Assembly: GCA_977017645.1 (NCBI GenBank)
Contig: OZ360246.1
Coordinates: 19,282,001-19,346,000, forward strand
DNA length: 64,000 nucleotides
Direction: 5' to 3'
DNA from: Torpedo marmorata
Lineage: Eukaryota
In this document: piece after piece, positions 5,698 through 47,422 of the stretch
Numbering within the stretch: position 1 is the first letter of the stretch
Layout of the letters: each line of letters begins with the position of its first letter
Notes under the pieces: model-generated
Database searches by the model: none
Seen by the model: the letters and a program-made list of their open reading frames with translations, nothing else
Told to the model about the DNA's origin: nothing
Program-made: the position numbers and the translations under genes

Positions 5698-6821
5698 AAG
5701 TAAACACGAAAATCTGTAGACACCGTGGTTAGAGTAAAAAACACAAAAGCTGGAGAACTCAGCAGGTCAAACAGTGTCTTTTATGTAGCAAAGGAAGAAA
5801 TACATAACCGACGTTTCGGGCTTGAGCCCTTCTTCAAAGTATGAGAAAATGCCGGCAGACATCCGAACAAAGGAGTGAGGGGGGAAGGGGGGGGGTGGCA
5901 AAGGCAGGAGATGATAGGTGGAGAAAGGAGGGAGGGGACAGCAGCAAAGAGGGGGAGGAGGGGTGGCTGGGTAGCTAGAGGAAACCAGGAAGGACAGGTG
6001 AGGGGGGAGGGGAAGGGAACAACAAACAGGTTTAGTGGAAAGCAGAAAAGTCAATGTTAATTCCATCTGGCTGGAGAGTGCCGAGACGGAATATGAGATG
6101 TTGTTCCTCCAATTTGCGGGTAGTAAGGGTGGGATGGTACATGAGGCCATGGACAGACATGTGAGTGTGGGAGTGTGACCCAGAATTGAAATGGTTGGCC
6201 ACTGGGAGGTCGCTGTTGTTGCGAACCGAGCGGAGGTGCTGAGCGAAGCGATCTCCCAATCTGCGACCGGTCTCTCCAATGTATAGAAGGCCACAAAGGG
6301 AGCACCGGATGCAGTAAATAAGTCCTCTGGATGTACAAGTGAAGTGTTGCTTCACTTGGAAGGCCTGTTTGGGGCCCTGGACCGTGGTGAGGGGGGAGGT
6401 GTGCGCGCAGGTGTTGCACCTCCTGCGGGCGCAGGGGAAGGTTCCGGGGGTGCGATGGGTGGGGAGGGACGAGTGCACGAGTGAATCACGGAGGGAGCGG
6501 TCCCTACGGAAGGCCGAGAGGGGAGGAGAAGGAAAAATGTGTCTGGTGGTGGGATCCTGCAGCAAGTGCCGGAAATTCCGGCGGATAATGTGTTGGATGC
6601 GGAGGCTGGTGGGGTGGTAGGTGAGGATGAGGGGTATTCTATGTTTGTTGTGTCTGGGGGCAGAGGGGGCCAGGGCAGATGAGCGGGAAATGGAGGAGAT
6701 GCGGGTGAGGGCTGAGTTGATGGTGGTGGAGGGGAAGCCACGTTTGTGGAAAAAGGCAGACATTTCAGAAGATCTGGAGTGGAACACCTCATCTTGGGAA
6801 CAGATGCGGCGAAGGCGGAGA
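5698..6821 (-). mobile_element. Penelope-like element 3' fragment (GIY-YIG endonuclease plus 3' terminus)
   Basis: LIYCIRCSLCGLLYIGETGRRLGDRFAQH; TSD AATTTCTACAT at 5687-5697 and 6822-6832. Confidence 0.9.
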
Positions 6822-7492
6822 AATTTCTACATGGTCAGTGGTAATACTACCATCCTCTTTGTGAATCTCCGTAATAAGACATTTAGCAGCTAAGCCTTTT
6901 AGCTGATTTGCCAAGAGTTTACCCGGCTTATCACCGTGAATGTAAAATTGACTCTTGCTTTTCAAAAGCTGTGTTTCGATAGGATAAGTCAAAAGCAAGT
7001 CATACTTAGTTTTAAGCTCAAGCCGTTTTTTAAATATCGCTGAGGAATAACCTGACAGAACAACACACGATTAGGAGGGATGGAGAGATGAGGAAGATAG
7101 TCAACATCTTTTTTTCCATGGCAGGGGTGTCAGAACCAAAGGGGCATAGGTTTAAGGTGAGAGGAAGGAGTTTTAAAGGGGATGTGAGGGATGTTTTTTT
7201 CCTTAGAGTGGTTGATATATGTGACGTGCTGTAGGAGAAAGTGGTGGAATCAGATACAATTACAATATTTAAGGGACATTTAGCCAGACCCTTAAGCAGG
7301 GAAGGCCTAGATAAATGTGGTCCCGAGGCTTATTTGAAAAAAAGATTATTGTCGCCTCTCTTTAACTGACTTGGTGTCCAATTAAAGAAAATATTTCTGC
7401 AAAGCACTTGCATTGAGTCGTAAAATAAACACAGGTTGCATCAAGAGCAGTGAGTCAGTTGCTCACCGATTTCTTTGTCTTGCTCCTTGCAG

Positions 7493-7617
7493 CCCCAGGA
7501 GCCCAACAGTTCTGTTTCCTTTTGTCCACTCGAGCCGGAGGTCTGGGAATTAACTTGGCCACAGCAGACACTGTTGTCATTTATGACTCAGACTGGAACC
7601 CCCACAATGACATTCAG
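7493..7617 (+). CDS. CHD5: CHD5 coding exon (helicase C-terminal lobe: (A)[41 protein letters not shown])
   Basis: SNF2 helicase motifs; AG at 7491-7492, GT at 7618. Confidence 0.93.
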
Positions 7618-46100: not shown

Positions 46101-47311
46101 GAAGCTTTCAGAACCCTTCTTAATCATTTTCTCTCTTCACCTGGTGTCCCTTCTTGTGCCAGTTTCAGGAATCCAATGCTCGACACATGAACAATGTGAC
46201 CTGCCATCAGCATTTAATTGGGTCCTCATTGCTGGAGACATTGGCCTGGGAGAGGACACTGATGTTGAATTATTCTGCTAGAGGATTTAGCAGAGTAAGT
46301 GTTATTGGACCTCTCTGGTGGCTGATGCCTGCTACAGGCAATCAATGTCTCAGATGTATGGGGAAATGACTGTTACCTGGTAGACAAGCTTTGGGACAGA
46401 TTTGATTATCTTCCTTCGATCACCAAAGGCAGTGTTGGTGGGACTGGAGGCAATCGTGAATTTTGTTGGAACTGGTATTGTACAATGGGAGCTCTGTGGT
46501 GGCTGTTGAACTGCAAGGTCCATCATTCTGTATGTTTCAGCAAATGAATTGGAGCTTGGCTTCTGAATACGGATATATGCAGCTGGGATCTAGGAATTGC
46601 AGGTCAAGGACTGAAGGTGGTGTGGTCTTAGTTTTGGAGTGGAGGTTGAACAGTTTCCATTTGTTCAATGGATCAGGTCCATTCAAACAGGAAACTATCT
46701 GGATGAGAGGTGCAACAATGCAGTGAGAAAGATTGGCATTGCTCGACCCCAGTCTGCACTGAGATGCAGTCTGTTATTAATCCAGTGGTTAAGAAGGATG
46801 CTCCACAATCCATTTCCATTGATCACTATCACAATTAAATTCACCATCAAGGAATAAAAATGTTTCCTCACACCCCTCCCCCAATAACTGGTGCCTGCAA
46901 GTCCTGTGTAGAAATCCCTTGCTATTCTTTGTGTCGTGCACTTAATTCTCTGGTCTGTTGGATCAATTTATGTGGTTCATATAACTACCAAGGTTATTAC
47001 TCAAGGTTTTGCATTTTAATTGGGCCCCTCGGCAGAACCTCCTTCCTAGACCTATGTTGGTTGTTGGTTCCTATGTGAACAACTGCACTTGAGATTCAGT
47101 TCTTCTTAACACTGGCAACCAAGCAGACATCACAGGCATCAAGTCTCTTGCTCACAACTATGTCAAATGGTATCTATCCTCCTGATTGTTGTCCCCTATC
47201 ACCACTTCCACTAACTACACTCTAGTCCTCTGTGCTGCAGTGACTTCATCAGATCGCCTTTATCAATGTGTAGAGAGGGTAAGCAATATACCTTATTCAG
47301 GCGCTGCCTTC

Positions 47312-47422
47312 TTTTTCTCATACCTTGAAGAAGGGCTCAGGCCTGAAATGTCGGTTAAATATCTTTACCTCCTATGGACGCTGCGAGACCTGCTGAGTTC
47401 CTCCAGCATTTCTGTGTTTTTA
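47312..47422 (+). mobile_element. Penelope terminus fragment
   Basis: ttctcataccttgaagaagggctcaggcctgaaatgtcgg...gacctgctgagttcctccagcatt. Confidence 0.65.

What the first reader, a model, noticed from the sequence alone, without database searches (positions are those of the whole stretch)
5803..47356. About ten hammerhead-ribozyme-like motifs spread by Penelope termini, mostly inside CHD5 introns
Seen: the motif (C/T)TGA(T/A)GA-A-GGGC-TCA(A/G)-GCC(C/T)-GAAA-CGT(C/T)-GGT recurs at about 5803(-), 14951(-), 15597(+), 21173(+), 25902(-), 25969(+), 28848(+), 31411(-), 34789(+) and 47319(+). Copies at 14951 and 15597 keep the canonical CUGAUGA/GAAA core; others have C3U or are degraded. Known: Penelope pseudo-LTRs carry minimal type I hammerheads whose tiny palindromic stem III (here ACGT) favours dimeric cleavage. 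Inference: the extra A after the first box and the C3U change may mark a lineage-specific variant, and sense copies would be transcribed within CHD5 pre-mRNA.
Basis: partly seen in the sequence, partly recalled or inferred. Interest (0 to 1): 0.7.

Follow-up and report, generated by a model that had tools for sequence, protein, structure and literature searches.

The report
Penelope retroelement ends with wobble-core hammerheads
The ten motifs are real but ordinary: they are end pieces of a very abundant Penelope-type jumping gene, likely of a shark or ray, carrying an already described tiny hammerhead RNA whose inherited C-to-U core change likely makes it a weak cutter, and they likely do nothing to the CHD5 gene they sit in.

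Summary
All ten motifs exist (0 expected by chance). They are pseudo-LTR ends of one Penelope-like retroelement lineage with a Neptune-type linker: two follow a broken element ORF, and target-site duplications show nine insertions. Nine lie in CHD5 introns (5 sense, 4 antisense). The density is ordinary: about 640,000 copies genome-wide by extrapolation, P≈0.17 for ten here. The 'extra A' is the published norm for these minimal hammerheads. U3·G8 has a published precedent. Stems I and II change compensatorily between old and young subfamilies while ten core bases stay fixed, so the fold was selected in the parent elements. Only 3 of 10 copies keep a full motif, and one of these is sense in CHD5. 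Copy 5' ends pile up 5 nt before the core (595) and not at the cut site (114; control 198), which suggests that uncut RNA is the template. Cleavage was not tested. This scan already reported this family, with these points, on other DNA and once in this genome. Verdict: new member of a known kind, low interest.

The parts
5698..6825 (-). 5'-truncated Penelope-like element (end of RT, GIY-YIG endonuclease, pLTR, tail); intact family-state motif at 5807-5837; antisense in a CHD5 intron
   Evidence: 92% identical to 27873-28995; GIY-YIG E=3e-4, just below the Pfam cut-off; 11-bp TSD; passes the descriptor
14874..15013 (-). Short pLTR copy; motif 14955-14985 reads CUGAUGA, but stem I pair 2.2-1.2 is an A x G mismatch
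   Evidence: belongs to a cluster with U3 in 28 of 31 sampled copies
15595..15700 (+). Short pLTR copy beginning at the hammerhead's 5' edge; C3 core with a 2-nt G insertion before stem II
   Evidence: 11-bp TSD; fails the descriptor
21087..21263 (.). Inverted pair of pLTR pieces; + copy 21172-21202 lacks part of the first core box and has U16.1C (dead)
25834..26073 (.). One insertion of two head-to-head pLTR copies; 25902-25932(-) has a stem I mismatch, 25972-26002(+) has G12A and C15.2A
   Evidence: shared 14-bp TSD
27408..28994 (+). 5'-truncated, frameshifted Penelope-like element (RT, C-X4-CxxC linker, endonuclease region, stop at 28656-28658, pLTR, tail) in the CHD5 intron 27069-29850
   Evidence: ORFs; 11-bp TSD; 94-95% identical to copies whose ORFs hit RVT_1, and in L224 also GIY-YIG
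28848..28888 (+). The only intact motif in CHD5 sense orientation: stem I 28851-28853/28882-28884, core UUGAUGA+A from 28854, stem II 28862-28873, GAAA, ACGU palindrome, predicted cut 28881|28882; 5'-end hotspot of the family at 28849
31350..31438 (-). Older pLTR copy with a scrambled first core box (dead)
34667..34904 (.). One insertion, inverted pLTR pair; + motif 34794-34824 has A9G, A14G and G1.1A (dead)
   Evidence: 13-bp TSD
47304..47423 (+). Short pLTR copy downstream of the CHD5 stop; U3 core, C15.2U weakens the stem III palindrome
7492..38160 (+). Host gene: 3' part of CHD5 (18 exon matches, stop at 38158-38160)
   Evidence: tblastn: ray CHD5 1703 bits against 1193 for a gecko CHD4

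Best explanation
The motifs are the hammerhead part of the end repeat (pseudo-LTR) of an abundant Penelope-like retroelement, pasted into CHD5 introns as mostly truncated, decaying copies; the RNA fold was likely selected only in the parent elements, where its inherited U3·G8 core likely cuts weakly and only as a dimer or with the element's protein, and the copies likely do nothing to CHD5. Shown: element context, target-site duplications, copy counts, U3·G8 as the majority state, fixed core and compensatory stems across subfamilies, CpG-type decay of copies, and 5' junctions that peak 5 nt before the core and not at the cut site. Inferred: transcription starts at that peak (an initiator-like YYANWYY; consensus recalled); reverse transcription starts about 100 or 136 nt after the core and copies mostly uncut RNA; occasional cutting would remove the cap plus about 33 nt, or release the element from read-through RNA.
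For: Motifs follow the element's stop codon in two window copies. A near-full copy has RT plus GIY-YIG (both below the Pfam cut-off, E=2e-6 and 6e-4) and the CX2-5CxxC linker of Neptune/Nematis. TSDs of 11-14 bp flank 5 of 9 insertions clearly. Two 3' ends 30-40 nt apart (the 'tail') and inverted pairs are known PLE traits. The motif fits the published consensus NNN CUGANGAH GN..NC GAAAN NUH. The descriptor gives 25 hits in 1 Mb against 0 in reversed DNA, all of this family. Across 7 subfamily majority states, 0 of 10 core columns vary against 42 of 62 flank columns (Fisher P=6e-5). Pairs 2.2-1.2, 2.3-1.3 and 10.4-11.4 switch CG>UA, AU>GC and CG>UA. Exact counts: U3-G8 106,930, C3-G8 1,593, U3-A8 1,846. 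144 copies in 1.4 Mb; ten in 64 kb has P≈0.17. Junction counts: 595 at -5, 198 in loop II, 114 at the cut site. In an Anolis PLE, the ribozyme needs protein and catalytic mutants still insert in vitro (PMC11167929).
Against: No cleavage was tested, and I found no measurement for an uncompensated U3·G8 core (searches gave none; the classic mutational papers and Lünse 2017 were not held). The covariation rests on about three changes between one old and one young group, and all three could be paired transitions; the 0/500 shuffle result is inflated by relatedness. Copies were picked by a profile that includes the core. The cap-G signal is weak (G 1,120 against A 975; junctions 29 of 30 against 21 of 30, of which 7 G cases are template switches to an inverted partner). 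The loci behind searches were not inspected. ViennaRNA prefers inactive folds: monomer -12.4 against -8.3, dimer -32.2 against -14.9 kcal/mol.
Confidence: 0.72

Rival explanations
1. The U3·G8 core is catalytically dead. The motif is kept in parent elements as a promoter-proximal or protein-binding RNA/DNA element, not as a ribozyme.
For: C3 is lost and not compensated (A8 in 1.7% of copies). There is no excess of 5' junctions at the cut site. Ribozyme mutants insert normally in vitro. Naiad and most Chlamys PLEs lack hammerheads yet proliferate. Inactive folds are favoured.
Against: All ten other core bases, H17 as C/U and the palindromic stem III are kept over subfamilies up to about 30% diverged, while N7 varies freely. 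In the youngest cluster C11.1U is tolerated (10 of 29) but the neighbouring G12 is never changed (29 of 29). U3·G8 keeps a pair, and it recurs in a hemichordate PLE.
Confidence: 0.2
2. The short copies are a separate SINE- or retrozyme-like family that moves as its own ~105-140-nt RNA.
For: Many copies have fixed ends (about -5 to +100/+136) and their own TSDs. Animal retrozymes derive from PLE pLTRs (bioRxiv 2026.07.22.740005).
Against: No tandem arrays of the motif in the window. Short and ORF-linked copies share the same subfamily letters. 21 of 90 copies run more than 100 nt upstream. Internal RT initiation in the 5' pLTR would give the same ends.
Confidence: 0.05
3. Sense copies cut CHD5 pre-mRNA and regulate the gene.
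For: Five motifs lie in sense inside introns; one (28854) is intact.
Against: Ordinary density; 5:4 strand ratio; four of five sense copies have core or spacing lesions, so there is no good cis partner for a dimer. A contig of coded organism C appears to cross the site without the element (same-depth contig on both flanks; the joint itself is not listed), and a contig of organism B joins 27068 to 29851 with GT..AG ends.
Confidence: 0.03

Closest known systems
Minimal type I hammerheads (min-HHR) in pLTRs of metazoan Penelope-like elements (Cervera & De la Peña 2014, PMC4209133)
   Same: Core box plus one extra nucleotide before G10.1, G10.1-C11.1, GAAA, palindromic 15.2-16.2, NUH, 3-bp stem I; mostly solo copies or opposite-strand pairs. 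The Acropora Neptune example has nearly the same stem II, and Saccoglossus(1) has U3 with G8.
   Different: No cartilaginous fish in their alignment or readable supplements (file 1 could not be searched). Copy number here is 10-70 times their largest (9,000 in Xenopus), and U3·G8 is the near-universal state of the young subfamilies.
Neptune-type EN+ Penelope-like elements (Craig et al., bioRxiv 2021.04.23.441226)
   Same: RT with C-terminal GIY-YIG, CX2-5CxxC linker, pLTR, 30-40-bp tail, inverted 5'-truncated partners.
   Different: Clade was not tested with a tree, and Nematis shares the linker. Clear 11-14-bp TSDs in non-microsatellite DNA.
Anolis Poseidon element PAc (PMC11167929)
   Same: Internal RT start defines 3' ends; uncut RNA appears to be the template; no trace of ends at the cut site.
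   Different: PAc has canonical C3-G8 and its ORF starts inside the hammerhead; here U3·G8, and no long ORF opens in the motif.
U3-A8 hammerhead variants (Perreault 2011, PMC3088659; Schistosoma Cercyon)
   Same: U at position 3.
   Different: Those are compensated (A8); here G8 is kept and A8 is at background level.

Membership tests
PLE minimal type I hammerhead | Core box CUGANGA (C3-G8 pair) | tested here: not met
   Position 3 is U in 106,930 of 108,523 exact G8 copies. U3·G8 can still pair, and the published family alignment includes such a member, so this files as a tolerated variant, not as a canonical core.
PLE minimal type I hammerhead | U4 G5 A6 G8 A9, G12 A13 A14 A15.1, U16.1 and H17 | tested here: met
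   0 of 10 columns vary among 7 subfamily majority states; H17 is C or U in 139 of 144 copies
PLE minimal type I hammerhead | One unpaired nucleotide between 9 and 10.1; G10.1-C11.1 | tested here: met
   A in 133 of 144; G10.1 in 131 of 144; published as conserved
PLE minimal type I hammerhead | Stems I and II with compensatory change | tested here: met
   Three pairs with double changes between subfamilies; 84.3% of cells paired against 78.8% shuffled; few independent events
PLE minimal type I hammerhead | Palindromic, loop-less stem III | tested here: met
   ACGU; C15.2 105 and G16.2 110 of 144, the rest mostly CpG decay
PLE minimal type I hammerhead | Self-cleavage as dimer or with protein | not testable with these tools
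   No assay; only contigs were served for sequencing runs
EN+ Penelope-like element | Single ORF with RT and C-terminal GIY-YIG | tested here: met
   766-aa ORF in L224: RVT_1 E=1.8e-6, GIY-YIG E=5.5e-4, both just under the curated cut-offs; window copies are truncated or frameshifted
EN+ Penelope-like element | pLTR with hammerhead, 30-40-bp tail, inverted truncated partners, TSDs | tested here: met
   against descriptions
Neptune clade | CX2-5CxxC linker before the endonuclease | tested here: met
   C-X4-CxxC in the ORFs; shared with Nematis
Neptune clade | RT phylogeny | not tested
   No reference PLE proteins were fetched
Non-LTR retrozyme | Tandem repeats with a hammerhead in each unit | tested here: not met
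   No such array in the window; a few short tandem cases appear among genome-wide hits and were not followed up

The most novel reading that the evidence does not exclude
A vertebrate Penelope lineage swapped the hammerhead's C3-G8 pair for a U3·G8 wobble and then reached hundreds of thousands of copies by reverse-transcribing capped, uncut RNA that starts five bases before the ribozyme. The hammerhead would then be a damped, cap-removing switch at the very 5' end of the transcript rather than the enzyme that makes the template, and damping it may have helped the burst.
Probability: 0.25. Interest if true: 0.5.

Novelty: new member of a known kind. Interest (0 to 1): 0.24.

Why it matters
What PLE hammerheads are for is stated to be unclear. 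This family is a convenient natural test: dated subfamilies with C3 or U3 cores, more than 100,000 exact copies, and 5' junctions that record which RNA was copied. For CHD5 itself it matters little, since these are ordinary repeat insertions.

Tried and rejected
Rfam scan: no hammerhead family at E<=10; the miRNA-like hits at 25.9 kb are the inverted pLTR pair. Enrichment in CHD5: rejected (P≈0.17). 'Extra A is lineage-specific': rejected. 'C3 copies are the intact ones': rejected (many of the 30 C3 loci viewed are junction-derived, lack a base or belong to older subfamilies, judged by eye). U3-A8 compensation: rejected. An alternative register with C3 one base earlier and an inserted U: rejected because it breaks stem I in the old subfamilies and the youngest has no C there. 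Cap-templated G at the 5' hotspot: weak, not claimed. Expression and cleavage ends: no RNA holder listed, and only contigs could be laid. A full pLTR-ORF-pLTR tandem was not found among the 13 loci picked from hit lists; they were inverted or separate insertions. Papers not held: Lünse et al. 2017 and two mechanistic papers. Literature searches for C3U or U3-G8 gave nothing, and a search for elasmobranch PLE pLTRs gave no dedicated paper; this does not show absence from print. Supplement file 1 of PMC4209133, bioRxiv supplements and the Lünse data set may already hold shark or ray examples. No RT tree or subfamily tree was built, so the order C3 to U3 rests on divergence levels only.

Full report
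Observation. Profile searches find the same ten core-bearing copies, two further 3'-only pieces, and nothing in reversed DNA. The host gene is CHD5. An exon's best named hits include shark and ray proteins, with ray CHD5 as the best full-length ones. Ray CHD5 maps as 18 exon matches from 7492 to a stop at 38158-38160, scoring 1703 bits against 1193 for a gecko CHD4, and more exons lie upstream of the window. So nine motifs are intronic (5 sense, 4 antisense) and one lies about 9 kb downstream. The organism is inferred to be a cartilaginous fish; the genome is 6.2 Gb.

What carries the motif. Two motifs lie about 200 nt after the stop codon of a broken ORF (27390-28658 on +, 6035-6826 on -; GIY-YIG hit for the second). 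A 94%-identical copy elsewhere holds a 766-aa frame with RVT_1 (E=1.8e-6) and GIY-YIG (E=5.5e-4), both just under Pfam's cut-offs. It has the CX2-5CxxC linker described for Neptune and Nematis elements (bioRxiv 2021.04.23.441226, passages). Five of nine insertions have clear 11-14-bp target-site duplications, and the pair 25902/25972 is one insertion. Copies end at two places 30-40 nt apart and often come as head-to-head pairs; both are described PLE traits (PMC3846280, passages). Contigs of a coded relative appear to cross the 27408-28994 site without the element (inferred from one contig depth on both flanks; the joint was not listed), and a contig of another joins the flanking exons with GT..AG ends.

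How common. I took 140 evenly spaced 10-kb stretches from 19 large contigs. They hold 144 core-covering copies, or about 640,000 genome-wide by extrapolation. Resampling gives P≈0.17 for ten or more in 64 kb. CHD5 is not special.

The motif against the known family. Cervera and De la Peña 2014 (PMC4209133; I read main-text parts 1-2 of 4 and supplement file 2, parts 1-2 of 3) define minimal PLE hammerheads with the consensus CUGANGAH, a conserved extra base before G10.1, a palindromic 15.2-16.2 and short stems. The extra A is therefore the norm. Their alignment includes U3-A8 cores and one U3-G8 core (Saccoglossus(1)). A generic descriptor that leaves position 3 free gives 25 hits in the first 1 Mb and 0 in reversed DNA; all are this family and all have U3. 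Exact genome-wide counts are 106,930 for U3-G8, 1,593 for C3-G8 and 1,846 for U3-A8. So U3·G8 is inherited from the parent elements, and C3 and A8 occur at background level in this young pattern. I clustered copies on sequence downstream of the ribozyme only. U3 holds in 27 of 29, 28 of 31 and 22 of 22 copies of the three youngest clusters (6-16% diverged). C3 is the majority in two older clusters (8 of 14 and 8 of 10), but U3 also holds in another old one (17 of 20). No tree was built, so the order of events is not tested. The two 'canonical' window copies belong to a U3 cluster and fail the descriptor.

Selection on the fold. Among majority states of seven clusters (the most mixed eighth was left out), 0 of 10 core columns vary against 42 of 62 flank columns (P=6e-5). 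N7 varies, and H17 is C or U in 139 of 144. Stem I changes from ACC/GGU to GUC/GAC and the outer stem II pair from C-G to U-A between young and old clusters. On 131 distinct rows, 84.3% of cells pair against 78.8% in shuffles, with 77 double changes against 35.5. These are only about three events, relatedness inflates the test, and the search profile includes the core. Individual copies decay at CpG sites regardless of function: G12A in 28, C15.2U in 32 and G16.2A in 29 of 144.

Which RNA was copied. Of 151 hits, I kept 90 (outside the window, at least 80% identical). Eighteen begin 1-10 nt before position 3 and none begins at +16 to +29, which includes the cut site at +28 (inverted partners are not independent). 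A matched genome-wide test (two non-element bases before a 32-mer of the youngest subfamily) gave 595 at -5, 198 in loop II and 114 at the cut site; these loci could not be inspected. The -5 base sits in a YYANWYY initiator-like word (consensus recalled). A cap-derived G is only weakly supported: 1,120 G against 975 A, with 29 of 30 and 21 of 30 viewed loci being true junctions, and 7 of the G cases template switches. This fits work on the Anolis element PAc (PMC11167929; passages and second half of the main section): RT starts internally, the ribozyme cuts only with the protein, and catalytic mutants still insert. It does not show that the ribozyme is inactive, because cut RNA may simply not be copied.

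Mechanism. Shown: context, counts, inherited U3·G8, conserved core, covarying stems, decay and junction pattern. Inferred: a transcript starting at the pLTR carries the hammerhead at its very 5' end; the loop-less ACGU stem III needs a second copy (PMC4209133; PMC6765202, passages; Lünse 2017 not seen) or the protein; and the wobble pair weakens catalysis. That C3-G8 pair in the active state is in PMC3088659 (section 8 read), but the size of the U3·G8 effect was not found in searches. ViennaRNA prefers inactive folds for monomer and dimer, without counting tertiary contacts. In CHD5 pre-mRNA only 28854 is intact in sense, and its possible partners are damaged and 3-13 kb away.

Prior art and verdict. 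This is a new member of a known kind. I found no paper devoted to shark or ray PLE hammerheads (the retrozyme preprint 10.64898/2026.07.22.740005, part 1 of 5 and passages read, sampled one chondrichthyan), but unseen supplements may hold them. Earlier notes of this scan report the same family, the inherited U and the 5'-end pattern in other genomes and once in this one. I reached those results before looking, and the notes are not independent evidence. Interest 0.24.

Noticed in passing
window:50830-51036 (-): Exon-sized frame with an aldo/keto reductase hit (E=3e-4, below cut-off, 76 of 98 minus-strand frames scanned); likely the last exons of KCNAB2, recalled as the tail-to-tail neighbour of CHD5.
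   Followed up: partly
window:8091-8300, 11617-11829, 12466-12707, 30509-30769, 31739-31988(-), 52583-52850, 53541-53630(-), 55947-56190(-): A second abundant ~250-nt interspersed repeat with an AT-rich 3' end, SINE-like, at least eight copies.
   Followed up: no
window:63235-63999 (+): Open 255-aa DDE_1 (pogo/Tigger-type) transposase frame running off the window end.
   Followed up: no
window:1076-5420 (-), 19925-20620 (-), 24210-25399 (+), 60822-62975 (+): Fragments of several LINE-type retrotransposons (RVT_1 or zf-RVT hits for three of the four; frames); clades not assigned.
   Followed up: no
window:59717-59869: Near-perfect 69-bp inverted repeat with a 15-nt loop; gives sub-threshold miRNA-family hits in Rfam; probably a transposon fold-back.
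   Followed up: no
window:21070-21290: The inverted pLTR pair here is flanked by an inverted, not direct, duplication of about 15 bp of host DNA, a possible trace of two-strand priming.
   Followed up: no
window:28918-28943 (+): A conserved block 65-90 nt after the core, just before the first 3' end, is kept in all subfamilies, could fold as a small hairpin and also resembles a branch point plus 3' splice site; candidate RT-start signal.
   Followed up: no
L232:9126-10000: A 21-bp tandem array open in all six frames.
   Followed up: no
L235:2710-6369 (-): Open 1,220-aa gag-pol-like frame of an LTR retrotransposon nested inside a Penelope copy; observed only.
   Followed up: no
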